From: Trypanosoma brucei
Taxonomy: Eukaryota
Reading direction: 5' to 3'
Length of the DNA: 64,000 nucleotides
Assembly (NCBI GenBank): GCA_000002445.1
Contig: CP000070.1
Span: 2,141,234-2,205,233, forward strand
Shown here: piece after piece, positions 24,096-53,180 of the stretch
Position numbering within the stretch: the stretch's first letter is position 1
How the letters are laid out: each line of letters begins with the position of its first letter
The notes under the pieces: generated by a model
Told to the model about the DNA's origin: nothing
What the model saw: the letters and a program-made list of their open reading frames with translations, nothing else
The model's database searches: none
Position numbers and translations under genes: made by a program

Positions 24096-24097
24096 AT

Positions 24098-35109: not shown

Positions 35110-35808
35110 ATGGAAATGGAGCAGGCTCCAGCGGTGGTAATATTCAGGCTTCTCACCGCGCTGATTTGCGCATCGAACATTGCAGTTGAGGCTTTCAATG
35201 TCGAGGGAGGTGTGAAGGATTTGAAAGAAGCAAATACGATGGTAAGGCACGGGATCCAGTTGGAGAGAATATCAGAGGACATCGCAAAATGTCTGAAGCA
35301 CGATAAGGAAGACCCTGAAGGTTGGGAAAAGGCTTGCAATCTCGCTGAGGAAGCGCTGGATATGCTTAAAAGAATAGCTGGCGAGCTTAATGGACCAAGG
35401 GGAAATGTGGCTGAAAAGCCAGAAGCAAAACAGGGACATAGTGAGAAGATAACTGGAGGTTGGAGAGATTGGAGGAGGGAATCAATAAAACCAAGAATAG
35501 GTGTAAATGGCTCTTCCCCAACCGCAATGGGGACGACTGAGATGTATGTTTCGGTTGTGAAAGTATGTGTGGAAGGAGGTGGTGTGACAAGCATATGTTT
35601 AGTTGGTAGTGCCTCCAGCGTTAAACCTAACAGCAAGGATCTTCAGTTTGATTTTGATGCGTGTGTCCAGCACTGGATAGATATTATAGGTGAATGTGGA
35701 GATCCTACGATTATGGGTATGTCAACACTGCCTGGTGGCGATGCAACAAAAGGGGACCGTCAGAAACAAAAAGAAGAGAACCACACTCTTCAAACTCCTT
35801 CCTCCTAG
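35110..35808 (+). CDS. Hypothetical protein with a predicted N-terminal signal peptide, about 232 aa
   Basis: The ORF at 35071..35808 is in the sense orientation of the plus-strand block. The internal ATG at 35110 gives MEMEQAPAVVIFRLLTALICASNIAVEA, a signal-peptide-like start. No recognisable domain. It is overlapped by a low-complexity antisense ORF, which was rejected. Confidence 0.4.
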   Translation: MEMEQAPAVVIFRLLTALICASNIAVEAFNVEGGVKDLKEANTMVRHGIQLERISEDIAKCLKHDKEDPEGWEKACNLAEEALDMLKRIAGELNGPRGNVAEKPEAKQGHSEKITGGWRDWRRESIKPRIGVNGSSPTAMGTTEMYVSVVKVCVEGGGVTSICLVGSASSVKPNSKDLQFDFDACVQHWIDIIGECGDPTIMGMSTLPGGDATKGDRQKQKEENHTLQTPSS

Positions 35809-38800
35809 TAATTTTTGCTACAATGCTTTTCCTTCACGGAAGATGTGGATGCTATATTATTAAAGAAACTTGTGGGGAGAGAATGTGGTATAGGTGTGTT
35901 TAATTCCTCTGCGTTTTTGGTGCTTCTTTGCATGATCTTTTTTTTTTATTATCAAAGCGCCAACGTTGTAATAGGGGTTATAAAATAAACTCCTCATCTT
36001 TATTACACCTCACAGAAATGCGATTTAATATTGTTAGTCCCTTATTCCTCGGAGGAATGGAATGTCACGGTATCGCAATTTATGATTTTATATGTTGAAT
36101 CCTTCAACGTGCTAACACTATCATTCTCTTCACTTACTTGAACGAAAAGGGCTCTCAGGAACAAGAAGCGACCGTTTCTTTACGCGATACGGGTTTTGAC
36201 ATGATATTGCCGCGATAAATCATATTGCAAAAATTACAGGTCTCCAATATGTCGCAGTCTAAATAAACAGACTTTAATTACGCTGATGAATGTAGCAAGA
36301 GAAATTGAGTGAGAATGCGTGTTGGCTTTGCATCGCGGCATTATAAGTATTACGCATCCGCGTTGGCAGAAATTAGTGCACGCACAGAGCACCTTGGCCA
36401 GCAAGTAGCGGTGACAAATTTGGGTCGATGACTGTTGGACGTGATGATCTTGCGCCTACAGAAGATTGTGCCGAGAAGCGAGATCAAATAAGCGAGTCCC
36501 TTAACAAAAGGTCGGAATGGCTCAGATTATTACTTTTCGTCCGGATTGGAAGGAGTGTGTGGTTTTTGCGTTTGGTGTGGATTACGACAAGTCGTCGGGT
36601 GGAGATCCCGGCACCGATACGGAAGCATTTCCAATGGAACAGGGACAGTGTAGCGCTCCTCGATTGGTTGGTGACACCCAAGACAGCCAAGTCCAATTCA
36701 CACCGAGCAGGTCGTTAAGTTCGCATTCGGGGATTAGGACGCTCTCGATATTACGCGACTACTCTCCACTTTGAAGTTCAAGGAACATGTAACAACGCTC
36801 ACAACAACCAAAGTCGAACGTATTCTGACTTCATGGGAGGTGATGACGCACCCCGTTAGAAGAGGGGCCTTTACAGCATGCTGCAGCCACAATTTGTGGA
36901 AGAACATAGCATGGATCCTCACATTATTCCCCAACTGATTAAGCACATCTATCCGTTCCACTTGCCGAGGAACACTGTCAGCCACTTGGATAAATACACC
37001 GCCATGTTGACTAATATGTAGAATATAGTCTCTATGATGTAACCCATGTCTTAGATGAAGGATAAGAGCCATGGGAGCCGCCAGGGCGTTGTCCCTTCAA
37101 GACGCACGGTTATACGATAACAAGGAGGGCGCACGCCACACGCCTGTTGAATACGCAGGACAAGGCTTCCATTCCTTTACAGCAAGTGCACGTCCCGCTG
37201 CTGGAGATATATTGAATCATTTCTCGCTTAAATTCGAGTGTGGAATGTAGATTTCAACATCTCTGGGGACTGATCGGACTGAGACCAAAAGGGACCAGTG
37301 AAAGGAGCCCTCAGGTTATTTCCATCGGCGATGATCGTTTACTTTGGAAGGTCGGTAGCGTAAAGGATGCCTCTTCCGCACCAACAGGAGCTCGGGTCAT
37401 CCCTCTTCTCAATTGCAGAGGATAAACTCTCCAACGAGCGTCGCTGGTGAATTGCGGGGCCTCAAGAGAAATAACAAAAGCGGATGAACCTTACGAGGCA
37501 ATTGTTCCTTTTGGAACACATTTCAAAATACCTCCATGCGGTTACTATCCTGAGTTGTCGACTTTTTCTGTCTGTTTTTTTTTTATTTTTTCTTAGAGGC
37601 GTTACGTCGTCGTCTTTTGCCTCGGACAGAGAACTTGTCCCCGCTACAGAGGCCGCTTTGTTGCCACTGTCCGCACTTGGTTTAGTAAGCGGGTATTGCT
37701 TTTTTGCCTGTTTAAAAATAAGAAACGCACGGTTACACCCAATTGGGAACCCGCAGTTGATTTGGTCACAGATGGCTCTTTGAGGGGTTGTGGGTCTGGG
37801 GCATGTCCTCTTATTGGATTCCGGTGAGGTGAAAATAATGTTATGTGGTGTAGTTGGTTTAAGTTCCCTTTTCTTATCATGCAGGCTCAGGCCCGTGTCC
37901 TCCGACTCTCCTCAGTAGCATTCGTGGAATCCTTTCCCCCTGAGTATTGACATTTGGGTTGATAATACATTCCTGTAAGGCGCGGAAACAAAAGGAAACA
38001 CAAAAGCCTACGGTCTTTCCGTGGCCATGGATGAGATGTTTATGATATTTGGTTCCCACAACATTAGCACAAATTACTCGTTTAACCGCTCCGTCAGCAA
38101 ACCGGCGGTCGGCTCCCGCGGAGGCACACGGTTTAACTGTGCAAAGTTAGTGAAAGAGTGCAACTTACAAAAGGAAGTGGCGGTGTCCCGAGGCTTTTGG
38201 GGACCACATGAACTGCCCTTTCACAAGTCTACTGTGAAATAAATATTCCGCTGCTGCTTGCCACCTAAGTTTGTGTCAGATGGGTATTGATGATTATAGA
38301 TTTAGTTTGCAACTCCTTGTTCCCCTCTATTTCATTTTCTTCCTCCATACATTAAGAGATCAAACAACTCCGAAATCCATATTCTCATCAACATTATTGT
38401 CTGTACGGTGGTTCTGTGAAGTTTTTCACTTCTAATGTGTTGTTACCAGTTGCGTTCATACACCTAAGATGTGTACGTTAAGAAGGTGAAGCGTGTGAAG
38501 TGGACGTTGCCACAAAGTAAAACTATCATCTGGTGCTGATTCAACGTGTTTGCTTCAATCCCTTTTTACATCTCCCCTGTGGATATTTTGGTTTGTGAGA
38601 GGTATCTCTCAAATGAAACTGCTGCCGACAACTATTTGCAACATCTAATACCTGTGCATAGCTTCCTGCATGTTTCCGTATGCTTCTTGTAACTTTCCTC
38701 ATATTCCCTCGTACCCGTTCTCTCTCTTTTACCTTTAGACAACCAAGGAATATGAAGCTGAGCAATGTCTGCCATGCTGTTGTCAGTTGAATGTTAACTG

Positions 38801-39161
38801 TGACTGCTAGTGTGCTTTGTTTTTGTTACTGGAATCCAGTCTATGATATTATAATGCTCCATTTACGCATTTACTCTTATGCCTAGTGATGTTTTATGTT
38901 TTTATATCGGATACATGAATGATGTGTGTGTGTGGGAATGTGTGTTGAACTACTTTCACACTGTTGTGGTTTGTATAATGTTATCCACTACAGTAGTTCC
39001 CTTTCCTACACTCTTATATACAATTATCATATGGAGTCTTATTGTGCCACAATCCAACATATCTGTACATATGCAGTCTATTAATCCTGCACCAATACTT
39101 TGTTATTATGCCGTTTTTGTCCTGTAGTTTGAAAGTTGAATTACGTTGAGTTACCAGTATT

Positions 39162-42100
39162 ATGGTTATCTTCATGCGTGAATTGTATGTTAGGGATGGC
39201 GTAGTCACTTGCGTAGTGTTTTCTTTGTTACTACAGGTGCTGACTGCATCATCACTTGCAAGTGGTGAAATACAGGTAAAGGTATACAACATGTTATACA
39301 GTGGCAAGATTTCAGCAAAGGTATATGATCCTATTACTGCAGGCTTCAACGCATCTCTTACCAACGGAAAGTCGCCTTCAGGTGGTAAAGTGACAGTCAT
39401 ATATGTTCCACCTAAGAATGATTCAGATTATGTTGAACATCTGGAGAAAAACATGTCATTTGGCAATAACAACGAAATATCTGTTGTGCTGGGACCTGTG
39501 GGTGACAAAAACACTCTCAACTTAACCGAATATTTCAAAGAAAAAAAGGTGATTGGTTTCTCACCCTTCACAGGATCCAGTAAGGTACGCAGTTGGAATC
39601 CTAATCTGTACTTCCTGACGGCATCACCCGCTGCTGAGATGCTTGCTCTTCTCCGTTATGCTATCACTCAGTTACGGTTACATCGACTGGGTTTCATGTA
39701 CTTGAAAAATGTTTCTTATGGTGATGATGAATATGAACTTGCTGTGGAATTGACAACAAGGATGGATCGCAAACTGTGTGGTGTTTTTGCATTGAATAGT
39801 CAACTTCGTGAGGAATCGGATGTTAGTACCTTCACTGCGGAATGGGATAGGTTTGCCGATACTCGACCCCAGGGTGTGATTGTATTTGGCTCTCCAATCC
39901 CTGATACGAAGAGATTCCTGGTGAAATCATTAGAAGATGAAAGGACAAAAAATGGATATTTGCTCATACCCTCTACACTCCAATATGTGATCGACAACAA
40001 GTGGTCAGAAGAATTGAATAGGAGCAAATTTCCAGCCGATAAGACAATAATAACAGGGACTAATCCACTTGCGAAGGATGATGGCTATGATGCAATTAAA
40101 CGTTTTAACAGAGAAATGGCTAAGTTCCTGGAGGACAACAAAAATAATTTTTCGCATGACAAATGGAATGTTACCCTAGATGTTAACGAAAATAACTTCA
40201 CCGAGCAAGACACTGATGCTGAGCTGATGGTGAGTGGATGGATTGCTGGAGAGGTATTGAAGCAAGCAGTGAGCTGTCGCGAATGGCTAACTAACAGGGA
40301 TGTATTTATGAAATCACTTTACAATCAGCGTCGTTATGTAATTGATGATCTTGTGGTTGGTGACTTTGGTGGTGAGTGCCAAGGCATGGCGGGTGAGCGA
40401 GGTGCATCATGTTTATGTAACCAAGGTGGGAATGTGGTGTACATGAAGAAGATAGGAAAGGATCATCGGCTACATCCCATGAAGGAAGGTGCATTAACTC
40501 TTACTTCATCTCGCTGTTATCGAGACCTGTCACAGCTGTACGCCCCATTGAGTGGCATCGTGTTTAATATAACTGACAACCCTAAGGTGCTGCGGACTGC
40601 AGAGGCAATATACGATGGTGCCTCTTATGTTGTTGGAAAGGGTCAACTGGGTCACTCTGATAGATTCTTTTTGCACTGGCTATCCTCGGAATCTCATGAT
40701 ACTTCTACAACTCTGTATGATGAAGTGAAGGAGCGAGTTGTAACTGCTGTGTTTGGTGTTGTGGATGATTCGTTACTGCGGACGAAGGGTATGACATTCA
40801 TCGATCCTATAATACTCACACCACAGCTGAGTGACCCCAGAAGGAATGTGATTCACCTGTCACCAACACTTGAGCAGCAACTATTCGTGATAGCTGAGCA
40901 TATCATACAAAATGGTACAGGAAAGATGCACGCCATTGTGCGTGGTGGTGATGCGAAAGGCATTGGCGATATGCTGAACAAAACCCTTGACTACTTTTTC
41001 GGTTCACTAAGCTCTCTTTCTGCGATTGGTGAGGGTTCTATTTTGAGAGACAAGCTACCGACTGCAGGTGAGGTGTTAGTTGCAGGTCTCACCTCAGATG
41101 ATATTCCAATAATCCTCTCTCACCTTGGCAAACACCATAAGGTGCGTATCTTTGTCCCGTTCTTTGATGTTGCGTTACTCTATGATGAACTTGTGAATGC
41201 CTTCCGTGACAAGCCATTTGCTGACCGTCTGCTATTCGCGACGAATCTGCCGCATTGGAGGGATAAGAACACGGGATCCGATATGGTACGTGAGTTCCAC
41301 AATGTTGTACAGAATGAGTCGAAGTGGAAGCCATTGTCATTACTTGGATATGCCACTGCACGTGCAATGATAAATGTGCTGCAACGTATGGGACATGTAA
41401 CGCCGGAGGAGCTTGTAGACGCCATCTTCGGTCAGTCTGTCATTACAGTTGATGATATGCGATATGGTCCTTTTGAAGACAAGTGTACTAACGGAGTTTC
41501 ATCTGAAGAGAAACACTGTGCTGTGAACTATGGTGCAACGCATATTTCTGTATGGTCGATGTCACGTGTTCTGAATCCTTCCGTGTCTCCTGTAGTGAAT
41601 TCTATCACACCATCAATGAAGTATAATGAACCAAAATGGATTCGACTAATAAATAAGCATATTGGTGCTGTGGCAGCTGGCTGCATTGTTCTGTTGGCGC
41701 TGTTTGTTACGGTTCTGGCACTTATTGTAAAGGCATCACGCCGTAACGCACGTGACAATAATAATGCTCCCAAGGAACCAACAGACCCCGTAACATTAAT
41801 ATTCACTGACATCGAGAGCAGTACAGCGCAGTGGGCAGCACACCCTGAGCAAATGCCTGACCTTGTGGCAACACATCACCGTTTGATCCGCTCCCTCATC
41901 ACACGGTATGAGTGCTACGAAGTGAAAACTGTTGGAGACTCTTTTATGATCGCATGTAAAAGTCCATTCGCCGCCGTCCAACTCGCATGTGACTTGCAAC
42001 GTGATTTTCTAAACCATGACTGGAATACCACTGAGCTTGATGAATCTTACCGTGAATTCGAACGGCAGCGTGCGGAAGATGACAGTGATTACACGCCACC

Positions 42101-42893
42101 AACTGCGAGCCTGGACCCTGAGGTTTATCGGCAACTGTGGAATGGGTTGCGTGTACGTGTAGGGATTCATACTGGATTGTGTGATATTCGTCATGATGAA
42201 GTAACGAAGGGTTACGACTATTATGGACGCACATCCAACATGGCAGCACGCACGGAGAGTGTTGGTAACGGTGGTCAGGTGCTGATGACGCGCTCAACAT
42301 ACCTGTCACTGAGTGGTGAGGAGCGTGAGCAAATTGATGTAACGCCTTTGGGTGATGTGCCGCTACGTGGTGTGCCGAAGCCTGTGGAAATGTACCAGTT
42401 GAATGCTGTACCTGGCCGCAACTTTGCTGCATTACGGCTTGACCGTGAAGCTGAGGAGGAAGAAGATAATGGAACTGGTAGTATCACTAGTGAGTCAGGA
42501 TCCCTCGCACATGGTTTAACTGCCACTGCCCAACAAGTTGCTGGTTGTATTGACGCTCTGCTTGGCACATTCCCTGCTGCCCAACGACAGAAGATGCTTG
42601 CAACTTTTTGTGAGCGTTGGCGTGTTAAGAAACCCCCAGGTGTGGATAGTTGGAATGAAGCCAGTTGTCGCTCTGTTACTCGTCGGATTGCTGCGAAGGT
42701 GGGTTGTGTTATGGATTTTGGAACGAGAAATACCTCTGGTAGCGTGGCTTCCTTTGAAAGGGGTGGAAGTCTCTTCTCACCTGGAGGAGTTGCTGCTGTA
42801 ATGCTTGCCTCATCCTCAAGCTCTTCCTGCGTTGCGGGACGCTGTGGTACCGTACAATTGATTGACCCAGAAAGTGCTAGCGCCGCCAGCTAA
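39162..42893 (+). CDS. GRESAG4: Receptor-type adenylate cyclase GRESAG4, tandem copy 1, 1243 aa
   Basis: Signal peptide, large ectodomain, a TM segment (IGAVAAGCIVLLALFVTVLALIV), then a class III cyclase domain (FTDIESSTAQWA, KTVGDSFMIACKSPF, GIHTGLCDIRHDEV, YYGRTSNMAARTES). A polypyrimidine tract (39098..39124) with an AG at 39126-39127 lies 34 nt upstream of the ATG. Confidence 0.92.
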   Translation: MVIFMRELYVRDGVVTCVVFSLLLQVLTASSLASGEIQVKVYNMLYSGKISAKVYDPITAGFNASLTNGKSPSGGKVTVIYVPPKNDSDYVEHLEKNMSFGNNNEISVVLGPVGDKNTLNLTEYFKEKKVIGFSPFTGSSKVRSWNPNLYFLTASPAAEMLALLRYAITQLRLHRLGFMYLKNVSYGDDEYELAVELTTRMDRKLCGVFALNSQLREESDVSTFTAEWDRFADTRPQGVIVFGSPIPDTKRFLVKSLEDERTKNGYLLIPSTLQYVIDNKWSEELNRSKFPADKTIITGTNPLAKDDGYDAIKRFNREMAKFLEDNKNNFSHDKWNVTLDVNENNFTEQDTDAELMVSGWIAGEVLKQAVSCREWLTNRDVFMKSLYNQRRYVIDDLVVGDFGGECQGMAGERGASCLCNQGGNVVYMKKIGKDHRLHPMKEGALTLTSSRCYRDLSQLYAPLSGIVFNITDNPKVLRTAEAIYDGASYVVGKGQLGHSDRFFLHWLSSESHDTSTTLYDEVKERVVTAVFGVVDDSLLRTKGMTFIDPIILTPQLSDPRRNVIHLSPTLEQQLFVIAEHIIQNGTGKMHAIVRGGDAKGIGDMLNKTLDYFFGSLSSLSAIGEGSILRDKLPTAGEVLVAGLTSDDIPIILSHLGKHHKVRIFVPFFDVALLYDELVNAFRDKPFADRLLFATNLPHWRDKNTGSDMVREFHNVVQNESKWKPLSLLGYATARAMINVLQRMGHVTPEELVDAIFGQSVITVDDMRYGPFEDKCTNGVSSEEKHCAVNYGATHISVWSMSRVLNPSVSPVVNSITPSMKYNEPKWIRLINKHIGAVAAGCIVLLALFVTVLALIVKASRRNARDNNNAPKEPTDPVTLIFTDIESSTAQWAAHPEQMPDLVATHHRLIRSLITRYECYEVKTVGDSFMIACKSPFAAVQLACDLQRDFLNHDWNTTELDESYREFERQRAEDDSDYTPPTASLDPEVYRQLWNGLRVRVGIHTGLCDIRHDEVTKGYDYYGRTSNMAARTESVGNGGQVLMTRSTYLSLSGEEREQIDVTPLGDVPLRGVPKPVEMYQLNAVPGRNFAALRLDREAEEEEDNGTGSITSESGSLAHGLTATAQQVAGCIDALLGTFPAAQRQKMLATFCERWRVKKPPGVDSWNEASCRSVTRRIAAKVGCVMDFGTRNTSGSVASFERGGSLFSPGGVAAVMLASSSSSSCVAGRCGTVQLIDPESASAAS

Positions 42894-45800
42894 TATTCCC
42901 CGTACCATTGCTGTATTTGCGCTTTGCTATTGAAGTGAATGAATAAGTTGTTTTACATGACGTTTGCAAGTTTTTATTTAGATTCATTTCGTATAAAGTG
43001 ACCATTATAACTTTCCCTCCCCATTCTTGTGCATGCAATGATCTCCTCATACGGTAGATGCTTTAAATACCTTTGTACATGAAGATGCTTTTTGTTTCTG
43101 ACATGGCTACTCTACTTTTGATAACTGTATTTGAAGATCGTAAATTTTCTTTTAATTCGTATGTTGAGGGATGGAAACGCACATGTTACTATTTTACATT
43201 CTGTTTCTTTTCGTCAGTGTTAATTATTCCATTAATTTTTCAAAAAGTCGTGGAGATAATGTGGACGAGAGGTGTTTAATTCTCACTGGCTCTTCTCACT
43301 TCATTTTCTTCATATGGTCTTTGTTTGACTGATGGAGACAGTCGTGACGTTGTAATAGGGGTTATAAAATAAACTCCTCATCTTTATTACACCTCACAGA
43401 AATGCCATTTAATATTGTTAGTCCCTTATTCCTCGGAGGAATGGAATGTCACGGTATCGCAATTTATGATTTTATATGTTGAATCCTTCAACGTGCTAAC
43501 ACTATCATTCTCTTCACTTACTTGAACGAAAAGGGCTCTCAGGAACAAGAAGCGACTGTTTCTTTACGCGATACGGGCTTTGACATGATATTGTCGCGAT
43601 AAATCATATTGCAAAAATTACAGGTCTCCAATATGTCGCAGTCTAAATAAACAGACTTTAATTACGCTGATGAATGTAGCAAGAGAAATTGAGTGAGAAT
43701 GCGTGTTGGCTTTGCATCGCGGCATTATGAATAAGTATTACGCATCCGCGTTGGCAGAAATTAGTGCACGCACAGAGCACCTTGGCCAGCAAGTAGCGGT
43801 GACAAATTTGGGTCGATGACTGTTGGACGTGATGATCTTGCGCCTACAGAAGATTGTGCCGAGAAGCGAGATCAAATAAGCGAGTCCCTTAACAAAAGGT
43901 CGGAATGGCTCAGATTATTACTTTTCGTCCGGATTGGAAGGAGTGTGTGGTTTTTGCGTTTGGTGTGGATTACGACAAGTCGCCGGGTGGAGATCCCGGC
44001 ACCGATACGGAAGCATTTCCAATGGAACAGGGACAGTGTAGCGCTCCTCGATTGGTTGGTGACACCCAAGACAGCCAAGTCCAATTCACACCGAGCAGGT
44101 CGTTAAGTTCGCATTCGGGGATTAGGACGCTCTCGATATTACGCGACTACTCTCCACTTTGAAGTTCAAGGAACATGTAACAACGCTCACAACAACCAAA
44201 GTCGAACGTATTCTGACTTCATGGGAGGTGATGACGCACCCCGTTAGAAGAGGGGCCTTTACAGCATGCTGCAGCCACAATTTGTGGAAGAACATAGCAT
44301 GGATCCTCACATTATTCCCCAACTGATTAAGCACATCTATCCGTTCCACTTGCCGAGGAACACTGTCAGCCACTTGGATAAATACACCGCCATGTTGACT
44401 AATATGTAGAATATATTCTCTATGATGTAACCCATGTCTTAGATGAAGGATAAGAGCCATGGGAGCCGCCAGGGCGTTGTCCCTTCAAGACGCACGGTTA
44501 TACGATAACAAGGAGGGCGCACGCCACACGCCTGTTGAATACGCAGGACAAGGCTTCCATTCCTTTACAGCAAGTGCACGTCCCGCTGCTGGAGATATAT
44601 TGAATCATTTCTCGCTTAAATTCGAGTGTGGAATGTAGATTTCAACATCTCTGGGGACTGATCGGACTGAGACCAAAAGGGACCAGTGAAAGGAGCCCTC
44701 AGGTTATTTCCATCGGCGATGATCGTTTACTTTGGAAGGTCGGTAGCGTAAAGGATGCCTCTTCCGCACCAACAGGAGCTCGGGTCATCCCTTTTCTCAA
44801 TTGCAGAGGATAAACTCTCCAACGAGCGTCGCTGGTGAATTGCGGGGCCTCAAGAGAAATAACAAAAGCGGATGAACCTTACGAGGCAATTGTTCCTTTT
44901 GGAACACATTTCAAAATACCTTCATGCGGTTACTATCCTGAGTTGTCGACTTTTTCTGTCTGTTTTTTTTTTATTTTTTCTTAGAGGCGTTACGTCGTCG
45001 TCTTTTGCCTCGGACAGAGAACTTGTCCCCGCTACAGAGGCCGCTTTGTTGCCACTGTCCGCACTTGGTTTAGTAAGCGGGTATTGCTTTTTTGCCTGTT
45101 TAAAAATAAGAAACGCACGGTTACACCCAATTGGGAACCCGCAGTTGATTTGGTCACAGATGGCTCTTTGAGGGGTTGTGGGTCTGGGGCATGTCCTCTT
45201 ATTGGATTCCGGTGAGGTGAAAATAACGTTATGTGGTGTAGTTGGTTTAAGTTCCCTTTTCTTATCATGCAGGCTCAGGCCCGTGTCCTCCGACTCTCCT
45301 CAGTAGCATTCGTGGAATCCTTTCCCCCTGAGTATTGACATTTGGGTTGATAATACATTCCTGTAAGGCGCGGAAACAAAAGGAAACACAAAAGCCTACG
45401 GTCTTTCCGTGGCCATGGATGAGATGTTTATGATATTTGATTCCCACAACATTGGCACAAATTACTCGTTTAACCGCTCCGTCAGCAAACCGGCGGTCGG
45501 CTCCCGCGGAGGCACACGGTTTAACTGTGCAAAGTTAGTGAAAGAGTGTAACTTACAAAAGGAAGTGGCGGTGTCCCGAGGCTTTTGGGGACCACATGAA
45601 CTGCCCTTTCACAAGTCTACTGTGAAATAAATATTCCGCTGCTGCTTGCCACCTAAGTTTGTGTCAGATGGGTATTGATGATTATAGATTTAGTTTGCAA
45701 CTCCTTGTTCCCCTCTATTTCATTTTCTTCCTCCATACATTAAGAGATCAAACAACTCCGAAATCCATATTCTCAACAACATTATTGTCTGTACGGTGGT

Positions 45801-46549
45801 TCTGTGAAGTTTTTCACTTCTAATGTGTTGTTACCAGTTGCGTTCATACACCTAAGATGTGTACGTTAAGAAGGTGCAGCGTGTGAAGTGGAGGTTGCCA
45901 CAAAGTAAAACTATCATCTGGTGCTGATTCAACGTGTTTGCTTCAATCCCTTTTTACATCTCCCCTGTGGATATTTTGGTTTGTGGGAGGTATCTCTCAA
46001 ATGAAACTGCTGCCGACAACTATTTGCAACATCTAATACCTGTGCATAGCTTCCTGCATGTTTCCGTATGCTTCTTGTAACTTTCCTCATATTCCCTCGT
46101 ACCCATTCTCTCTCTTTTACCTTTAGACAACCAAGGAATATGAAGCTGAGCAATGTCTGCCATGCTGTTGTCAGTTGAATGTTAACTGTGACTGCTAGTG
46201 TGCTTTGTTTTTGTTACTGGAATCCAGTCTATGATATTATAATGCTCCATTTACGCATTTACTCTTATGCCTAGTGATGTTTTATGTTTTTATATCGGAT
46301 ACATGAATGATGTGTGTGTGTGGGAATGTGTGTTGAATTACTTTCACACTGTTGTGGTTTGTATAATGTTATCCACTACAGTAGTTCCCTTTCCTACACT
46401 CTTATATACAATTATCATATGGAGTCTTATTGTGCCACAATCCAACATATCTGTACATATGCAGTCTATTAATCCTGCACCAATACTTTGTTATTATGCC
46501 GTTTTTGTCCTGTAGTTTGAAAGTTGAATTACGTTGAGTTACCAGTATT

Positions 46550-49500
46550 ATGGTTATCTTCATGCGTGAATTGTATGTTAGGGATGGCGTAGTCACCTAC
46601 GTAGTGTTTTCTTTGTTACTACAGGTGCTGACTGCATCATCACTTGCAAGTGGTGAAATACAGGTAAAGGTATACAACATGTTATACAGTGGCAAGATTT
46701 CAGCAAAGGTATTTGATCCTATTACTGCAGGCTTCAACGCATCTCTTACCAACGGAAAGTCGCCTTCAGGTGGTAAAGTGACAGTCATATATGTTCCACC
46801 TAAGAATGATTCAGATTACGTTGAACATCTTAATAAGGAACCGTCATTTGTCAACTTAAACGAAATATCTGTTGTGCTGGGACCTGTGGGTGACAAAAAC
46901 ACTCTCGACTTAACCGAATATTTCAAAGAAAAAAAGGTGATTGGTTTCTCACCCTTCACAGGATCCAGTAAGGTACGCAGTTGGAATCCTAATCTGTACT
47001 TCCTGACGGCATCACCCGCTGCTGAGATGCTTGCTCTTCTCCGTTATGCTATCACTCAGTTACGGTTACATCGACTGGGTTTCATGTACTTGAAAAATGT
47101 TTCTTATGGTGATGATGAATATGAACTTGCTGTGGAATTGACAACAAGGATGGATCGCAAACTGTGTGGTGTTTTTGCATTGAATAGTCAACTTCGTGAG
47201 GAATCGGATGTTAGTACCTTCACTGCGGAATGGGATAGGTTTGCCGATACTCGACCCCAGGGTGTGATTGTATTTGGCTCTCCAATCCCTGATACGAAGA
47301 GATTCCTAATGAAATCATTAGAAGATGAAAGGACAAAAAATGGATATTTGCTCATACCCTCTACACTCCAATATGTGATCGACAACAAGTGGTCAGAAGA
47401 ATTGAATAGGAGCAAATTTCCAGCCGATAAGACAATAATAACAGGGACTAATCCACTTGCGAAGGATGATGGCTATGATGCAATTAAACGTTTTAACAGA
47501 GAAATGGCTAAGTTCCTGGAGGACAACAAACCTAATTTTTCTCATGACAAATGGAATGTTACCCTAAATTTTGACAAAGACAACTTCACCGAGCAAGACA
47601 CTGATGCTGAGCTGATGGTGAGTGGATGGATTGCTGGAGAGGTATTGAAGCAAGCAGTGAGCTGTCGCGAATGGCTAACTAACAGGGATGTATTTATGAA
47701 ATCACTTTACAATCAGCGTCGTTATGTAATTGATGATCTTGTGGTTGGTGACTTTGGTGGTGAGTGCCAAGGCATGGCGGGTGAGCGAGGTGCATCATGT
47801 TTATGTAACCAAGGTGGGAATGTGGTGTACATGAAGAAGATAGGAAAGGATCATCGGCTACATCCCATGAAGGAAGGTGCATTAACTCTTACTTCATCTC
47901 GCTGTTATCGAGACCTGTCACAGCTGTACGCCCCATTGAGTGGCATCGTGTTTAATATAACTGACAACCCTAAGGTGCTGCGGACTGCAGAGGCAATATA
48001 CGATGGTGCCTCTTATGTTGTTGGAAAGGGTCAACTGGGTCACTCTGATAGATTCTTTTTGCACTGGCTATCCTCGGAATCTCATGATACTTCTACAACT
48101 CTGTATGATGAAGTGAAGGAGCGAGTTGTAACTGCTGTGTTTGGTGTTGTGGATGATTCGTTACTGCGGACGAAGGGTATGACATTCATCGATCCTATAA
48201 TACTCACACCACAGCTGAGTGACCCCAGAAGGAATGTGATTCACCTGTCACCAACACTTGAGCAGCAACTATTCGTGATAGCTGAGCATATCATACAAAA
48301 TGGTACAGGAAAGATGCACGCCATTGTGCGTGGTGGTGATGCGAAAGGCATTGGCGATATGCTGAACAAAACCCTTGACTACTTTTTCGGTTCACTAAGC
48401 TCTCTTTCTGCGATTGGTGAGGGTTCTATTTTGAGAGACAAGCTACCGACTGCAGGTGAGGTATTGGTTGCAGGTCTCACCTCAGATGATATTCCAATAA
48501 TCCTCTCTCACCTTGGCAAACACCATAAGGTGCGTATCTTTGTCCCGTTCTTTGATGTTGCGTTACTCTATGATGAACTTGTGAATGCCTTCCGTGACAA
48601 GCCATTTGCTGACCGTCTGCTATTCGCGACGAATCTGCCGCATTGGAGGGATAAGAACACGGGATCCGATATGGTACGTGAGTTCCACAATGTTGTACAG
48701 AATGAGTCGAAGTGGAAGCCATTGTCATTACTTGGATATGCCACTGCACGTGCAATGATAAATGTGCTGCAACGTATGGGACATGTAACGCCGGAGGAGC
48801 TTGTAGACGCCATCTTCGGTCAATCTGTCATTACAGTTGATGATATGCGATATGGTCCTTTTGAAGACAAGTGTACTAACGGAGTTTCATCTGAAGAGAA
48901 ACACTGTGCTGTGAACTATGGTGCAACGCATATTTCTGTATGGTCGATGTCACGTGTTCTGAATCCTTCCGTGTCTCCTGTAGTGAATTCTGTCACACCA
49001 TCAATGAAGTATAATGAACCAAAATGGATTCGACTAATAAATAAGCATATTGGTGCTGTGGCAGCTGGCTGCATTGTTCTGTTGGCGCTGTTTGTTACGG
49101 TTCTGGCACTTATTGTAAAGGCATCACGCCGGAACGCACGTGACAATAATAATGCTCCCAAGGAACCAACAGACCCCGTAACATTAATATTCACTGACAT
49201 CGAGAGCAGTACAGCGCAGTGGGCAGCACACCCTGAGCAAATGCCTGACCTTGTGGCAACACATCACCGTTTGATCCGCTCCCTCATCACACGGTATGAG
49301 TGCTACGAAGTGAAAACTGTTGGAGACTCTTTTATGATTGCATGTAAAAGTCCATTCGCCGCCGTCCAACTCGCATGTGACTTGCAACGTGATTTTCTAA
49401 ACCATGACTGGAATACCACTGAGCTTGATGAATCTTACCGTGAATTCGAACGGCAGCGTGCGGAAGATGACAGTGATTACACGCCACCAACTGCGAGCCT

Positions 49501-50281
49501 GGACCCTGAGGTTTATCGGCAACTGTGGAATGGGTTGCGTGTACGTGTAGGGATTCATACTGGATTGTGCGACATCCGCTACGATGAAGTGACGAAGGGT
49601 TACGACTATTATGGACGCACATCCAACATGGCAGCACGCACGGAGAGTGTTGGTAACGGTGGTCAGGTGCTGATGACGCGCTCAACATACCTGTCACTGA
49701 GTGGTGAGGAGCGTGAGCAAATTGATGTAACGCCTTTGGGTGATGTGCCGCTACGTGGTGTGCCGAAGCCTGTGGAAATGTACCAGTTGAATGCTGTACC
49801 TGGCCGCAACTTTGCTGCATTACGGCTTGACCGTGAAGCTGAGGAGGAAGAAGATAATGGAACTGGTAGTATCACTAGTGAGTCAGGATCCCTCGCACAT
49901 GGTTTAACTGCCACTGCCCAACAAGTTGCTGGTTGTATTGACGCTCTGCTTGGCACATTCCCTGCTGCCCAACGACAGAAGATGCTTGCAACTTTTTGTG
50001 AGCGTTGGCGTGTTAAGAAACCCCCAGGTGTGGATAGTTGGAATGAAGCCAGTTGTCGCTCTGTTACTCGTCGGATTGCTGCGAAGGTGGGTTGTGTTAT
50101 GGATTTTGGAACGAGAAATACCTCTGGTAGCGTGGCTTCCTTTGAAAGGGGTGGAAGTCTCTTCTCACCTGGAGGAGTTGCTGCTGTAATGCTTGCCTCA
50201 TCCTCAAGCTCTTCCTGCGTTGCGGGACGCTGTGGTACCGTACAATTGATTGACCCAGAAAGTGCTAGCGCCGCCAGCTAA
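46550..50281 (+). CDS. GRESAG4: Receptor-type adenylate cyclase GRESAG4, tandem copy 2, 1243 aa
   Basis: Same length and architecture as copy 1. It differs from copy 1 at about 20 residues clustered in three patches (aa 94-105, 326-345, and the DIR[H/Y]DEV site), plus a few singletons (C17Y, Y55F, V250M, I831V). Confidence 0.92.
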   Translation: MVIFMRELYVRDGVVTYVVFSLLLQVLTASSLASGEIQVKVYNMLYSGKISAKVFDPITAGFNASLTNGKSPSGGKVTVIYVPPKNDSDYVEHLNKEPSFVNLNEISVVLGPVGDKNTLDLTEYFKEKKVIGFSPFTGSSKVRSWNPNLYFLTASPAAEMLALLRYAITQLRLHRLGFMYLKNVSYGDDEYELAVELTTRMDRKLCGVFALNSQLREESDVSTFTAEWDRFADTRPQGVIVFGSPIPDTKRFLMKSLEDERTKNGYLLIPSTLQYVIDNKWSEELNRSKFPADKTIITGTNPLAKDDGYDAIKRFNREMAKFLEDNKPNFSHDKWNVTLNFDKDNFTEQDTDAELMVSGWIAGEVLKQAVSCREWLTNRDVFMKSLYNQRRYVIDDLVVGDFGGECQGMAGERGASCLCNQGGNVVYMKKIGKDHRLHPMKEGALTLTSSRCYRDLSQLYAPLSGIVFNITDNPKVLRTAEAIYDGASYVVGKGQLGHSDRFFLHWLSSESHDTSTTLYDEVKERVVTAVFGVVDDSLLRTKGMTFIDPIILTPQLSDPRRNVIHLSPTLEQQLFVIAEHIIQNGTGKMHAIVRGGDAKGIGDMLNKTLDYFFGSLSSLSAIGEGSILRDKLPTAGEVLVAGLTSDDIPIILSHLGKHHKVRIFVPFFDVALLYDELVNAFRDKPFADRLLFATNLPHWRDKNTGSDMVREFHNVVQNESKWKPLSLLGYATARAMINVLQRMGHVTPEELVDAIFGQSVITVDDMRYGPFEDKCTNGVSSEEKHCAVNYGATHISVWSMSRVLNPSVSPVVNSVTPSMKYNEPKWIRLINKHIGAVAAGCIVLLALFVTVLALIVKASRRNARDNNNAPKEPTDPVTLIFTDIESSTAQWAAHPEQMPDLVATHHRLIRSLITRYECYEVKTVGDSFMIACKSPFAAVQLACDLQRDFLNHDWNTTELDESYREFERQRAEDDSDYTPPTASLDPEVYRQLWNGLRVRVGIHTGLCDIRYDEVTKGYDYYGRTSNMAARTESVGNGGQVLMTRSTYLSLSGEEREQIDVTPLGDVPLRGVPKPVEMYQLNAVPGRNFAALRLDREAEEEEDNGTGSITSESGSLAHGLTATAQQVAGCIDALLGTFPAAQRQKMLATFCERWRVKKPPGVDSWNEASCRSVTRRIAAKVGCVMDFGTRNTSGSVASFERGGSLFSPGGVAAVMLASSSSSSCVAGRCGTVQLIDPESASAAS

Positions 50282-53180
50282 TATTCCCCGTACCATTGCT
50301 GTATTTGCGCTTTGCTATTGAAGTGAATGAATAAGTTGTTTTACATGACGTTTGCAAGTTTTTATTTAGATTCATTTCGTATAAAGTGACCATTATAACT
50401 TTCCCTCCCCATTCTTGTGCATGCAATGATCTCCTCATACGGTAGATGCTTTAAATACCTTTGTACATGAAGATGCTTTTTGTTTCTGACATGGCTACTC
50501 TACTTTTGATAACTGTATTTGAAGATCGTAAATTTTCTTTTAATTCGTATGTTGAGGGATGGAAACGCACATGTTACTATTTTACATTCTGTTTCTTTTC
50601 GTCAGTGTTAATTATTCCATTAATTTTTCAAAAAGTCGTGGAGATAATGTGGACGAGAGGTGTTTAATTCTCACTGGCTCTTCTCACTTCATTTTCTTCT
50701 TCATATGGTCTTTGTTTGACTGATGGAGACAGTCGTGACGTTGTAATAGGGGTTATAAAATAAACTCCTCATCTTTATTACACCTCACAGAAATGCCATT
50801 TAATATTGTTAGTCCCTTATTCCTCGGAGGAATGGAATGTCACGGTATCGCAATTTATGATTTTATATGTTGAATCCTTCAACGTGCTAACACTATCATT
50901 CTCTTCACTTACTTGAACGAAAAGGGCTCTCAGGAACAAGAAGCGACTGTTTCTTTACGCGATACGGGCTTTGACATGATATTGTCGCGATAAATCATAT
51001 TGCAAAAATTACAGGTCTCCAATATGTCGCAGTCTAAATAAACAGACTTTAATTACGCTGATGAATGTAGCAAGAGAAATTGAGTGAGAATGCGTGTTGG
51101 CTTTGCATCGCGGCATTATGAATAAGTATTACGCATCCGCGTTGGCAGAAATTAGTGCACGCACAGAGCACCTTGGCCAGCAAGTAGCGGTGACAAATTT
51201 GGGTCGATGACTGTTGGACGTGATGATCTTGCGCCTACAGAAGATTGTGCCGAGAAGCGAGATCAAATAAGCGAGTCCCTTAACAAAAGGTCGGAATGGC
51301 TCAGATTATTACTTTTCGTCCGGATTGGAAGGAGTGTGTGGTTTTTGCGTTTGGTGTGGATTACGACAAGTCGCCGGGTGGAGATCCCGGCACCGATACG
51401 GAAGCATTTCCAATGGAACAGGGACAGTGTAGCGCTCCTCGATTGGTTGGTGACACCCAAGACAGCCAAGTCCAATTCACACCGAGCAGGTCGTTAAGTT
51501 CGCATTCGGGGATTAGGACGCTCTCGATATTACGCGACTACTCTCCACTTTGAAGTTCAAGGAACATGTAACAACGCTCACAACAACCAAAGTCGAACGT
51601 ATTCTGACTTCATGGGAGGTGATGACGCACCCCGTTAGAAGAGGGGCCTTTACAGCATGCTGCAGCCACAATTTGTGGAAGAACATAGCATGGATCCTCA
51701 CATTATTCCCCAACTGATTAAGCACATCTATCCGTTCCACTTGCCGAGGAACACTGTCAGCCACTTGGATAAATACACCGCCATGTTGACTAATATGTAG
51801 AATATAGTCTCTATGATGTAACCCATGTCTTAGATGAAGGATAAGAGCCATGGGAGCCGCCAGGGCGTTGCCCCTTCAAGACGCACGGTTATACGATAAC
51901 AAGGAGGGCGCACGCCACACGCCTGTTGAATACGCAGGACAAGGCTTCCATTCCTTTACAGCAAGTGCACGTCCCGCTGCTGGAGATATATTGAATCATT
52001 TCTCGCTTAAATTCGAGTGTGGAATGTAGATTTCAACATCTCTGGGGACTGATCGGACTGAGACCAAAAGGGACCAGTGAAAGGAGCCCTCAGGTTATTT
52101 CCATCGGCGATGATCGTTTACTTTGGAAGGTCGGTAGCGTAAAGGATGCCTCTTCCGCACCAACAGGAGCTCGGGTCATCCCTTTTCTCAATTGCAGAGG
52201 ATAAACCCTCCAACGAGCGTCGCTGGTGAATTGCGGGGCCTCAAGAGAAATAACAAAAGCGGATGAACCTTACGAGGCAATTGTTCCTTTTGGAACACAT
52301 TTCAAAATACCTCCATGCGGTTACTATCCTGAGTTGTCGACTTTTTCTGTCTGTTTTTTTTTTATTTTTTCTTAGAGGCGTTACGTCGTCGTCTTTTGCC
52401 TCGGACAGAGAACTTGTCCCCGCTACAGAGGCCGCTTTGTTGCCACTGTCCGCACTTGGTTTAGTAAGCGGGTATTGCTTTTTTGCCTGTTTAAAAATAA
52501 GAAACGCACGGTTACACCCAATTGGGAACCCGCAGTTGATTTGGTCACAGATGGCTCTTTGAGGGGTTGTGGGTCTGGGGCATGTCCTCTTATTGGATTC
52601 CGGTGAGGTGAAAGTAATGTTATGTGGTGTAGTTGGTTTAAGTTCCCTTTTCTTATCATGCAGGCTCAGGCCCGTGTCCTCCGACTCTCCTCAGTAGCAT
52701 TCGTGGAATCCTTTCCCCCTGAGTATTGACATTTGGGTTGATAATACATTCCTGTAAGGCGCGGAAACAAAAGGAAACACAAAAGCCTACGGTCTTTCCG
52801 TGGCCATGGATGAGATGTTTATGATATTTGATTCCCACAACATTAGCACAAATTACTCGTTTAACCGCTCCGTCAGCAAACCGGCGGTCGGCTCCCGCGG
52901 AGGCACACGGTTTAACTGTGCAAAGTTAGTGAAAGAGTGTAACTTACAAAAGGAAGTGGCGGTGTCCCGAGGCTTTTGGGGACCACATGAACTGCCCTTT
53001 CACAAGTCTACTGTGAAATAAATATTCCGCTGCTGCTTGCCACCTAAGTTTGTGTCAGATGGGTATTGATGATTATAGATTTAGTTTGCAACTCCTTGTT
53101 CCCCTCTATTTCATTTTCTTCCTTCATACATTAAGAGATCAAACAACTCCGAAATCCATATTCTCATCAACATTATTGTC

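What the first reader, a model, noticed from the sequence alone, without database searches (positions are those of the whole stretch)
39441..40199. Two further clustered-substitution patches in the ectodomain distinguish the otherwise identical tandem GRESAG4 copies
Patch A: aa 94-105 reads LEKNMSFGNNNE in copy 1 (39441..39476) and LNKEPSFVNLNE in copy 2 (46829..46864). Patch B: aa 326-345 reads KNNFSHDKWNVTLDVNENNF in copy 1 (40138..40199) and KPNFSHDKWNVTLNFDKDNF in copy 2 (47526..47587). Outside the patches, and in 3.6 kb of spacer, the copies are nearly identical. The divergence is therefore mosaic, consistent with short-tract gene conversion from other family members, or with diversifying selection on surface-exposed ectodomain loops. 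Patch A alters an N-glycosylation sequon context (NMS versus EPS).
Basis: seen in the sequence. Interest (0 to 1): 0.55.

Follow-up and report, generated by a model that had tools for sequence, protein, structure and literature searches.

The report
Mosaic patches in tandem trypanosome cyclase genes
Two neighbouring, almost identical receptor adenylate cyclase (GRESAG4) genes of Trypanosoma brucei differ mainly in three tiny stretches that look like pasted-in sequence rather than accumulated point mutations; this is a real but ordinary case of the gene-conversion mosaicism already described for trypanosome tandem gene arrays.

Summary
The two 1243-aa GRESAG4 ORFs (39162-42893 and 46550-50281; T. 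b. brucei TREU927, XP_846372/XP_846373) differ at 42 of 3732 nt. Thirty of those differences fall in three patches covering 113 nt: A (39431-39470), B (40143-40193) and C (42182-42203). This clustering never arose in 20,000 random placements.

Synonymous divergence inside the patches (pS 0.22-0.54 or more) is 25-65 times the background of 0.008, so the patches are diverged tracts and not selected point mutations.

- **Patch C:** copy 2 is identical over 22-112 nt to a distant paralogue in the same window (6877-6988, minus strand). This is direct evidence of ectopic micro-conversion.
- **Patch A, first half:** both alleles are old haplotypes shared with the chromosome-4 GRESAG4 array.
- **Patch A second half and patch B:** no donor was found in any accessible sequence. 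The origin of these tracts is unresolved: it could be an unsampled donor, a local template or selection.

An AlphaFold model places both ectodomain patches in loops of a Venus-flytrap (LIVBP-like) domain. Copy 1 has two N-glycosylation sequons (N97, N120) that copy 2 lacks. Mosaic GRESAG4 arrays are already published (Jackson 2007; Jackson et al. 2010), so interest is low to moderate.

The parts
39162..42893 (+). GRESAG4 copy 1 CDS (1243 aa; XP_846372 / Q57TY9): signal peptide, two PBP-like ectodomain modules, TM helix at aa 834-856, class III cyclase domain
46550..50281 (+). GRESAG4 copy 2 CDS (1243 aa; XP_846373 / Q57TZ0); derived at 25 of the 42 differing sites, including almost all the clustered ones
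35963..43346 (+). Tandem repeat unit 1 (spacer plus copy 1 plus 3' flank)
43347..50737 (+). Tandem repeat unit 2
50738..53180 (+). Partial third unit (2.44 kb of spacer only), giving an S-gene-S-gene-S layout
39431..39470 (+). Patch A in copy 1 (14 differences in 40 nt; codons 90-103). Sub-patch A1 (39443-39454) resembles the 'LEKHM' haplotype of chr-4 paralogues. Sub-patch A2 (39463-39470) resembles the g44-type paralogue. Carries sequon N97-M-S.
46819..46858 (+). Patch A in copy 2. A1 (46831-46842) resembles the 'LNSET/LNNET' haplotype of chr-4 paralogues. A2 (46851-46858, GTCAACTTA) is unique among all sampled sequences.
39516..39530 (+). Candidate local template for copy 2's A2 allele (CTCAACTTAACCGAA, 13 of 15 identical; the only partner with 2 or fewer mismatches in the window); includes the N120 codon
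39519..39519 (+). N120D difference (A in copy 1, G at 46907 in copy 2); creates or destroys sequon N120-L-T
40143..40193 (+). Patch B in copy 1 (9 differences in 51 nt; codons 328-344), inside a subfamily-specific 20-residue loop insertion
47531..47581 (+). Patch B in copy 2; P328, F341, K343 and D344 are unique among all subfamily proteins; no donor found
49497..49608 (+). Patch C conversion tract in copy 2 (minimum 49570-49591, 22 nt; maximum 112 nt); 6 synonymous steps plus H1011Y in the catalytic domain
42182..42203 (+). Patch C position in copy 1 (state shared with all chr-4-type genes, so unconverted)
6877..6988 (-). Donor-like segment, 100% identical to copy 2's patch C tract, inside the paralogue 6273-9890
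6273..9890 (-). Third GRESAG4 paralogue in the window (1205 aa, about 48% aa identity to the pair, about 80% nt identity in the cyclase domain)

Best explanation
The window is from a 2.2-Mb T. b. brucei TREU927 chromosome (chromosome 7 by size). It carries two tandem GRESAG4 receptor adenylate cyclase genes in an S-gene-S-gene-S arrangement. These were duplicated or last homogenised recently, with 0.3-0.6% background divergence. Most of the difference between them comes from a few very short, non-reciprocal, templated sequence replacements of about 11-112 nt (micro gene conversion), mainly written into copy 2. It does not come from gradual point mutation. One tract (patch C, catalytic domain) was copied from a distant GRESAG4 paralogue like the one 40 kb upstream on the opposite strand. 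It lies in a stretch that is identical in the pair and the paralogue on both sides (73 nt upstream, 17 nt downstream), which could have allowed pairing. Patches A and B lie in two indel-tolerant, glycan-bearing surface loops of the N-terminal Venus-flytrap (LIVBP-like) domain. These same loops are mosaic hotspots throughout the chromosome-4 / chromosome-7 GRESAG4 subfamily. New tracts persist there because the loops tolerate change, and possibly benefit from it. Shown here: the clustering, the raised synonymous divergence, the donor identity for C, the shared haplotypes for A1, and the loop location. Inferred: that A2 and B also arose from templates (an unsampled paralogue, the other haplotype or a local template), and that selection plays any role in keeping them.
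For: Clustering: 30 of 42 differences lie in 113 nt, and no simulation out of 20,000 reached this. Synonymous divergence is pS 0.54 in patch A, 0.22 in B and saturated in C, against 0.0083 in the rest of the gene. Codons with two or three changes occur (AAC to TTA, ATG to CCG, AAT to CCT). Patch C: copy 2 equals the in-window paralogue at 7 of 7 sites, and an exact 112-nt match occurs once in the window at 6877-6988 (minus strand). The run test gives P<2e-4. All 9 chr-4-type sequences that cover the site (8 full-length genes and one fragment) carry the copy-1 state, and a relative of the paralogue shares 4 of the 7 donor states, which gives the direction paralogue to copy 2. Patch A1: at sites 283, 285, 291 and 293 both alleles segregate among the chr-4-type genes of T. 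b. gambiense and T. equiperdum. Copy 1 matches GAGAAACACATG at 11 of 12 nt. Copy 2 matches AATAACGAAACA or AATAGCGAAACG at 9 of 12. Hotspots: aa 92-106 and 324-338 are among the 12 most variable 45-nt windows across the chr-4-type genes, and paralogues carry indels at both places. Structure: in the AF2 model (pLDDT 85.9, pTM 0.89), patch A is a helix end plus loop before strand 105-110, and patch B is a 20-residue coil with pLDDT about 66. Foldseek's top hits are LIVBP-type binding proteins at E about 1e-13. Literature: gene-conversion mosaics are reported in T. brucei tandem arrays, including the GRESAG4 arrays on chromosomes 4 and 7 (PMC1855330, PMC2854126).
Against: No donor was found for patch A2 or patch B in the window, in loci L001-L004 (about 81 kb, both strands, up to 3 mismatches), or among all 22 subfamily proteins in the database. 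For A1, the sampled 'LEKHM'-type genes share no flanking identity with copy 1, so none of them can be the actual donor, and an 11-13-nt tract would be unusually short. The 3' half of patch B looks like three substitutions in each copy away from an intermediate sequence seen in T. equiperdum. Five of the six are nonsynonymous first-position changes, which fits selection on point mutations as well as it fits conversion. The TREU927 genome outside the window, its subtelomeres and its second haplotype could not be searched.
Confidence: 0.6

Rival explanations
1. Islands of old divergence. The two copies are old paralogues whose bodies and spacers have been repeatedly homogenised by long-tract conversion or unequal crossing-over. 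Patches A and B are the remnants that escaped, either because selection favours two different loop versions or because high local mismatch density blocks heteroduplex formation.
For: Both A1 alleles are ancient haplotypes that predate the T. brucei subspecies split. The S-gene-S-gene-S layout and the alternating shared SNPs among the three spacer copies show ongoing exchange within the array. Jackson 2007 documents concerted evolution in these arrays. Patch flanks are sharply identical.
Against: Patch C cannot be a remnant. It is identical to a paralogue with only about 48% aa identity and is almost purely synonymous, so it must be an import. That shows imports do happen here. Copy 2 carries nearly all the clustered derived states, which is an asymmetry not expected for symmetric remnants.
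Confidence: 0.2
2. In situ point mutation under strong diversifying selection on exposed ectodomain loops, with no template involved.
For: Emes & Yang 2008 inferred positively selected sites mostly in the AC ectodomain (PMC2386149). Patch B's 3' half has 5 nonsynonymous and 1 synonymous change in 5 consecutive codons. Five are at first positions and they split 3:3 between the copies relative to a T. equiperdum intermediate. Sequon gain or loss occurs at N97 and N120. No donor was found for A2 or B.
Against: Synonymous sites inside patch A are about 65 times more diverged than background, and pN/pS is below 1 in A (0.53) and B (0.75). Runs of 2-4 adjacent changed nucleotides are unlikely as independent hits. 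The A1 alleles pre-exist in paralogues. Patch C shows the same clustering without any protein-level diversification.
Confidence: 0.12
3. For sub-patch A2 only: a single multinucleotide templated mutation. Misaligned repair or template switching would have copied the sequence 54 nt downstream (CTCAACTTAACCGAA) over GGCAATAACAACGAA.
For: All five copy-2-specific changes move toward that sequence, raising the match from 9 of 15 to 13 of 15. It is the only partner with 2 or fewer mismatches in 64 kb on either strand. Only 0.13% of random gene 15-mers have such a neighbour within 100 nt, and only 0.44% of random changes at the same five sites reach 13 of 15.
Against: It was noticed post hoc, after inspecting ten sub-patch alleles. 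Two mismatches remain. Copy 2's own downstream site has three mismatches. A single 40-nt import from an unsampled paralogue explains all of patch A equally well.
Confidence: 0.2
4. Assembly or sequencing artefact in a near-identical tandem repeat.
For: Tandem repeats of 99.4% identity are hard to assemble. A short-read T. equiperdum assembly breaks 62 nt into the repeat. Jackson 2007 warns about chimeric assemblies.
Against: All patches keep the reading frame. They are not low-complexity runs. Patch C is at most 112 nt, far shorter than a Sanger read from the 80%-identical paralogue, so a misplaced read would have brought in many more differences. Both proteins are full-length and match the deposited records exactly.
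Confidence: 0.03

Closest known systems
Sequence mosaics in T. brucei tandem gene arrays, including the GRESAG4 arrays Tb927.4.4470 (chr 4) and Tb927.7.6080 (chr 7) (Jackson 2007, PMC1855330; Jackson et al. 2010, PMC2854126)
   Same: Tandem surface-protein genes with near-identical non-coding regions, discontinuous variation, and biased (non-reciprocal) gene conversion tracts. Subspecies-specific mosaics occur: TREU927 XP_844595 and its T. b. gambiense cluster-mate already differ at patch B.
   Different: Those studies detected mostly within-array events of about 85-330 bp and called ectopic conversion 'very rare' (two arrays). Here the best-supported tract is ectopic, coming from a paralogue with about 48% aa identity, inverted and 40 kb away. 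It is only 22-112 nt long, probably below their detection limit. I could not establish whether this pair was part of their array Tb62.
Segmental gene conversion that builds mosaic VSGs (my own knowledge of the antigenic-variation literature; VSG mosaics are also mentioned in PMC2854126)
   Same: Short donor segments from diverged family members are pasted into a recipient gene that encodes an exposed surface domain.
   Different: VSG mosaics form in or for telomeric expression sites under immune selection and involve silent pseudogene archives. Here the genes are chromosome-internal, intact, and not known to be antigenically variable.
Positive selection in the T. brucei adenylate cyclase ectodomain (Emes & Yang 2008, PMC2386149)
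   Same: Variation is concentrated in the LIVBP-like N-terminal ectodomain.
   Different: That analysis used site models and does not mention gene conversion (0 occurrences). Here the synonymous sites are equally affected, so much of the apparent fast evolution is tract exchange.
Type I periplasmic binding protein / Venus-flytrap sensor domains (LivJ/LivK, ANP receptor, mGluR, taste receptors)
   Same: The fold of aa 30-460 (Foldseek E about 1e-13 to 4kv7, 3eaf and 3td9; also GC-A and mGluR ectodomains).
   Different: 10-16% sequence identity, an unknown ligand, and an extra 20-residue glycosylated loop (patch B) specific to this GRESAG4 subfamily.

Membership tests
Trypanosome receptor-type adenylate cyclase (ESAG4/GRESAG4) | Class III cyclase catalytic domain homologous to GRESAG4.1/4.3 | tested here: met
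   PF00211 at aa 871-1081 (E 7.5e-43); PDB 1fx4/1fx2 at E 1e-125
Trypanosome receptor-type adenylate cyclase (ESAG4/GRESAG4) | Large ectodomain made of two PBP-like modules, then a single transmembrane helix | tested here: met
   PF13458/PF25495 at aa 103-299 and PF25493 at aa 459-822; hydrophobic segment at aa 834-856; AF2 plus Foldseek give a LIVBP fold
Trypanosome receptor-type adenylate cyclase (ESAG4/GRESAG4) | GRESAG rather than ESAG: encoded outside a telomeric VSG expression site | tested here: met
   100% identical to proteins named GRESAG 4 on the 2.2-Mb TREU927 chromosome. The neighbours are a 2OG oxygenase, a RING protein and LRR protein genes. None of the ORFs examined looked like a VSG gene. 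70-bp repeats and telomeric repeats were not specifically searched for.
Trypanosome receptor-type adenylate cyclase (ESAG4/GRESAG4) | Adenylate cyclase activity and flagellar surface location | not testable with these tools
   Needs biochemistry and localisation
Interlocus (ectopic) gene conversion tract | Cluster of differences bounded by near-identical sequence | tested here: met
   Patches A, B and C
Interlocus (ectopic) gene conversion tract | Synonymous as well as nonsynonymous sites diverged within the tract | tested here: met
   pS is 0.54 (A), 0.22 (B) and saturated (C) against 0.0083 background. For B this rests on only about 2 synonymous changes.
Interlocus (ectopic) gene conversion tract | A donor elsewhere carries the identical tract | tested here: inconclusive
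   Met for patch C (112-nt exact match at 6877-6988). Partly met for A1 (haplotype class shared, 11/12 and 9/12 nt). Not met for A2 and B in the accessible data. The rest of the TREU927 genome was not searchable.
Interlocus (ectopic) gene conversion tract | Non-reciprocal transfer (donor unchanged) | tested here: inconclusive
   For C the paralogue keeps states typical of its own clade (4 of 7 shared with a T. equiperdum relative), which is consistent with one-way transfer. There is no pre-event sequence to compare.
Diversifying (positive) selection on codons | dN/dS above 1 in the region | tested here: not met
   pN/pS is 0.53 (A), 0.75 (B) and well below 1 (C). Only the 15-nt 3' half of B has 5 nonsynonymous to 1 synonymous change, which is too few sites to test.

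The most novel reading that the evidence does not exclude
Copy 2 of this chromosome-internal GRESAG4 pair acts as a preferred sink for very short templated patches of 11-112 nt. The templates would include a paralogue that is only about 80% identical in nucleotides, inverted and 40 kb away, and possibly a misaligned site 54 nt away in the same gene. On this reading, a VSG-like segmental mosaic process, largely invisible to standard recombination detectors, continuously rewrites glycosylated sensor-domain loops of trypanosome receptor cyclases. It would also inflate published estimates of positive selection in the family.
Probability: 0.15. Interest if true: 0.55.

Novelty: new member of a known kind. 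Interest (0 to 1): 0.25.

Why it matters
GRESAG4/ESAG4 receptor cyclases are the largest family of candidate environmental sensors on the trypanosome flagellum. They matter for evasion of host innate immunity and for social motility in the tsetse fly, yet their ligands are unknown.

Knowing that paralogue differences are concentrated in two glycan-bearing loops, and are produced largely by tract exchange, has two practical uses. First, it points to which ectodomain segments are free to vary and which are constrained. The likely ligand cleft belongs to the constrained part. Second, it warns that dN/dS-based claims of adaptive evolution in this family need to be corrected for recombination.

The pair also offers a clean natural example of a very short ectopic conversion tract with both donor and recipient in one 64-kb window. 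Beyond that, the finding is an expected feature of T. brucei tandem arrays.

Tried and rejected
1. Looked up TREU927 loci by exact protein (copy 1, copy 2, P0002, P0004). That genome is not indexed, so its chr-4 array and the rest of chr 7 could not be read as DNA.

2. Tried to reach the syntenic locus in other subspecies through the upstream 2OG oxygenase (homology search). No T. brucei-group orthologue in an indexed assembly came back. Exact-match look-ups of the two upstream genes did find a T. equiperdum contig, but it ends 62 nt into the repeat. The state of the pair in other strains therefore stays unknown.

3. No T. b. gambiense or T. equiperdum protein above 90% identity to the pair exists in the database.

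4. Exact k-mer search (10 nt or more) for patch alleles in the window gave only chance-level hits, except for patch C.

5. Near-match scan (up to 3 mismatches) of all patch alleles in the window and L001-L006 found no donor for A2 or B.

6. Solvent accessibility could not be computed because the model coordinates are not exposed.

7. Searched the literature for the protein accessions: no hits. I could not assign Tb927.7 gene IDs.

8. tRNA and Rfam scans of the window were empty.

9. Rejected the in-window paralogue as donor for patches A and B. It matches neither copy consistently there and lacks the patch B insertion.
Full report
**What is there.** The window contains two 1243-aa ORFs on the plus strand, 39162-42893 and 46550-50281, exactly 7388 nt apart. 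[quoted passage not shown] Both lie on a 2,205,233-bp chromosome, which is chromosome 7 by size (my inference).

Pfam finds a PBP-like module at aa 103-299, a second PBP-like module at aa 459-822 and a class III cyclase domain at aa 871-1081. The cyclase domain matches the solved GRESAG4.1/4.3 structures at E about 1e-125. A hydrophobic helix lies at aa 834-856.

The genes sit in a tandem repeat of 2.33 units: 35963-43346, 43347-50737, and a partial unit of spacer only at 50738-53180. This gives an S-gene-S-gene-S layout. A third, distant GRESAG4 paralogue (1205 aa, about 48% aa identity) lies at 6273-9890 on the minus strand.

**Checking the observation.** The patch B peptides are also right, but the stated start is 2 nt out of frame. 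The correct ranges are 40140-40199 and 47528-47587, aa 327-346.

The two CDSs differ at 42 of 3732 nt:

| Region | Window range (copy 1) | Differences | Codons |
|---|---|---|---|
| Patch A | 39431-39470 | 14 | 90-103 |
| Patch B | 40143-40193 | 9 | 328-344 |
| Patch C (catalytic domain) | 42182-42203 | 7 | 1007-1014 |
| Rest of CDS | about 3.6 kb | 12 (0.33%) | scattered |

The upstream spacer differs by 18 substitutions and one 4-bp indel in 3.2 kb (0.56%). The 453-nt 3' flank has no substitutions. In 20,000 random placements of 42 differences, the densest 40-nt window never held more than 6, against 14 observed. The median gap was 61 nt in simulation against 3 observed.

**Tracts or point mutations?** Nei-Gojobori counts give the following:

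| Region | pS | pN |
|---|---|---|
| Patch A | 0.54 | 0.29 |
| Patch B | 0.22 | 0.17 |
| Patch C | saturated | 0.05 |
| Remaining 1204 codons | 0.0083 | 0.0018 |

Synonymous sites inside the patches are thus 25-65 times more diverged than elsewhere, and pN/pS is below 1 in every patch. Several codons differ at two or three positions (AAC/TTA, ATG/CCG, AAT/CCT). Selection on independent point mutations since the duplication cannot produce this pattern. The patches are pieces of older, diverged sequence.

**Patch C gives a direct donor.** Copy 2 matches the in-window paralogue at all 7 differing sites. The whole 38-nt query around the patch, and in fact a 112-nt stretch (49497-49608), is 100% identical to 6877-6988 on the minus strand, and occurs only once there. 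The paralogue is only about 80% identical to the pair across the cyclase domain. A run-length permutation test gives P<2e-4.

All 9 chromosome-4-type sequences that cover the site (8 full-length genes and one fragment) carry the copy-1 state. A T. equiperdum relative of the paralogue shares four of the seven donor states. The direction is therefore paralogue-like sequence into copy 2.

The tract is 22-112 nt long. It lies in a stretch identical in all three genes on both sides (73 nt upstream, 17 nt downstream), which is plausibly what allowed pairing. A misassembled Sanger read would have brought in many more paralogue-specific differences, so this is not an assembly artefact.

**Patch A.** I fetched nucleotide sequence for nine chromosome-4-type genes from T. 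b. gambiense DAL972 (FN554967, the chr-4 record) and T. equiperdum. Against these, the 5' half of patch A (CDS 282-293) turns out to be an old dimorphism.
- Copy 1 (CTG GAG AAA AAC ATG) matches the 'LEKHM' type (GAGAAACACATG) at 11 of 12 nt.
- Copy 2 (CTT AAT AAG GAA CCG) matches the 'LNSET/LNNET' types at 9 of 12 nt.
- Both types occur in the chr-4 arrays of both other genomes.
- The shared flanks of the pair resemble the LNSET/LNNET-type genes.

Either copy 1 received a tiny LEKHM-type tract, or copy 2 received a roughly 40-nt tract from an unsampled LNxET-type relative. The sampled genes share no flanking identity with the pair, so none of them is the actual donor.

In the 3' half (CDS 302-309), copy 1 resembles one chr-4 type (GGC..AAC), while copy 2's GTCAACTTA is unique. 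Unexpectedly, the copy-2 15-mer GTCAACTTAAACGAA has a single partner with 2 or fewer mismatches in the whole window. That partner is CTCAACTTAACCGAA at 39516-39530, 54 nt downstream of the homologous position in copy 1. All five copy-2 changes move toward it (P about 0.001-0.004, post hoc). This hints at a local templated multinucleotide mutation, but it is not proven.

**Patch B.** This patch lies in an insertion found only in the chr-4/chr-7 subfamily. Copy 2 is derived at CDS 982, 983 and 993 (AAT to CCT; TCG to TCT). In the 3' half the two copies each differ by three substitutions from an intermediate sequence seen in T. equiperdum (AATGTTGACGAAAACAAC). Five of these six changes are nonsynonymous first-position changes in five consecutive codons. 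No donor exists in the window, in the fetched loci, or among all 22 subfamily proteins in the database. The origin of patch B is therefore unresolved. The candidates are an unsampled close relative (for example the other haplotype or a lost third copy), or protein-level selection on point changes.

**Polarity.** With the chr-4-type genes as outgroup, copy 2 is derived at 25 sites, including A2, B1, half of B2 and all of C. Copy 1 is derived at 12 sites, mostly scattered singletons. Five sites are ambiguous. Copy 2 has therefore taken most of the clustered changes.

**Hotspots and structure.** Among the chr-4-type genes alone, aa 92-106 and aa 324-338 are among the twelve most variable 45-nt windows. 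Paralogues carry 3-aa and 1-4-aa indels at these two places. Patch A is at the 97th percentile of ectodomain entropy across the whole family.

An AlphaFold2 model of aa 30-460, built with 59 sequences, has pLDDT 85.9 and pTM 0.89. It places patch A at the end of a helix (aa 90-97) plus the loop (aa 98-104) before the strand ISVVLG. It places patch B within a 20-residue coil (aa 326-345) that has the lowest internal confidence, about 66. Foldseek's best PDB matches are LIVBP-type solute-binding proteins (4kv7, 3eaf, 3td9; E about 1e-13), followed by taste-receptor, mGluR and GC-A flytrap domains.

From the known topology of type I binding proteins, a helix-to-strand connection such as patch A points away from the inter-lobe cleft. 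This is an inference that I did not test.

Copy 1 has two sequons missing from copy 2: N97-M-S in patch A and N120-L-T at the 39519 singleton. The three sequons around patch B (N329, N336, N345) are kept in both copies.

**Comparison with what is known.** Jackson (2007, PMC1855330) catalogued 76 conversion events in 21 T. brucei tandem arrays, including an adenylate cyclase array on chromosome 7 (Tb62, Tb927.7.6080). That study reported that ectopic conversion was very rare. [quoted passage not shown] Emes & Yang (2008, PMC2386149) inferred positive selection mainly in the cyclase ectodomain and identified the LIVBP homology, but did not consider gene conversion.

The present pair is therefore one more example of a documented phenomenon. 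Two points are mildly new. The best-supported tract is ectopic and very short, probably below the reach of the earlier detectors. And the raised synonymous divergence shows that tract exchange, rather than codon selection, accounts for most of the apparent rapid evolution here.

**Verdict.** The patches are real. The mosaic interpretation is right. Gene conversion is demonstrated for the neighbouring patch C and well supported for part of patch A, but remains an inference for the rest of A and for B. Pure diversifying selection is rejected for A and remains open only for the 3' half of B. Artefact is very unlikely. Novelty: a new member of a known kind. Interest: 0.25.

Noticed in passing
window 46850-46864 versus 39516-39530: Copy 2's unique patch A2 sequence GTCAACTTAAACGAA has only one partner with 2 or fewer mismatches in the 64-kb window. 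That partner is CTCAACTTAACCGAA, 54 nt downstream of the homologous site in copy 1. All five copy-2 changes move toward it (P about 0.001-0.004, post hoc). This may be a templated multinucleotide mutation.
   Followed up: partly
window 39450-39458 (N97) and 39519-39527 (N120); copy 2 at 46838 and 46907: Copy 1 carries two N-glycosylation sequons (NMS, NLT) that copy 2 lacks (EPS, DLT). All 14 other sequons are shared.
   Followed up: yes
window 50738-53180: A partial third repeat unit (2.44 kb of spacer, no CDS) gives an S-gene-S-gene-S layout, which is suited to copy-number change by unequal crossing-over. The three S copies share SNPs in an alternating pattern (u3=u2 at 9 sites, u3=u1 at 5 sites, interleaved), suggesting exchange among the spacers too.
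   Followed up: partly
window 40179-40193 / 47567-47581: Five consecutive codons differ at their first position (GAT/AAT, GTT/TTT, AAC/GAC, GAA/AAA, AAT/GAC). This is a 3-nt periodicity, with derived states alternating between the two copies.
   Followed up: partly
window 32594-33562 (+): An intact 2OG-Fe(II) oxygenase ORF. Its best database protein is only 85% identical and no TREU927 entry came back, although an identical gene is called in T. equiperdum. It is about 57% identical to Pseudomonas 2OG oxygenases, which is unusually high for a eukaryote-bacterium pair.
   Followed up: no
L005/L006 (T. equiperdum GCA_001457755.2, CZPT02001757.1), aligned to window 22623-36025: The contig is 99.06% identical to the window and ends 62 nt inside repeat unit 1. 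This is the usual short-read break at a collapsed repeat, so the repeat probably exists in T. equiperdum. The inter-strain divergence (0.94%) exceeds the copy 1/copy 2 spacer divergence (0.56%).
   Followed up: partly
database hits P0001 cluster: No T. b. gambiense or T. equiperdum protein is more than 90% identical to this chr-7 pair. The closest are the chr-4 array genes (77-87%). The pair may be missing, collapsed or unannotated in those assemblies.
   Followed up: partly
L001/L003 versus TREU927 proteins: TREU927 XP_844595 and T. b. gambiense XP_011773044 fall in the same 90%-identity cluster and appear to occupy equivalent positions in the chr-4 array. They carry different patch B haplotypes (NNFSKDNWNVTLNANENNF versus DNLSGTGQWNVNLNVDESNF). 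This shows loop shuffling between subspecies.
   Followed up: partly
database hits P0018, P0033: Two full-length GRESAG4-like proteins (about 48-49% identity) are annotated as Schistosoma mansoni on 17-20-kb contigs. This is most likely trypanosome contamination of that assembly.
   Followed up: no
window 57184-57960 (-) and 58084-61221 (-): A leucine-rich-repeat protein gene (ESAG8-like LRRP, 1045 aa) and an adjacent LRR fragment lie on the opposite strand. The GRESAG4 pair therefore sits at the end of a plus-strand gene run facing a convergent strand switch. No tRNA or Rfam RNA genes are present anywhere in the window.
   Followed up: partly
window 35071-35808 (+): A 245-aa ORF just upstream of the repeat has no Pfam domain but is called as a gene and is 100% conserved in T. 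equiperdum. It has an N-terminal hydrophobic segment and overlaps a 208-aa antisense ORF.
   Followed up: no
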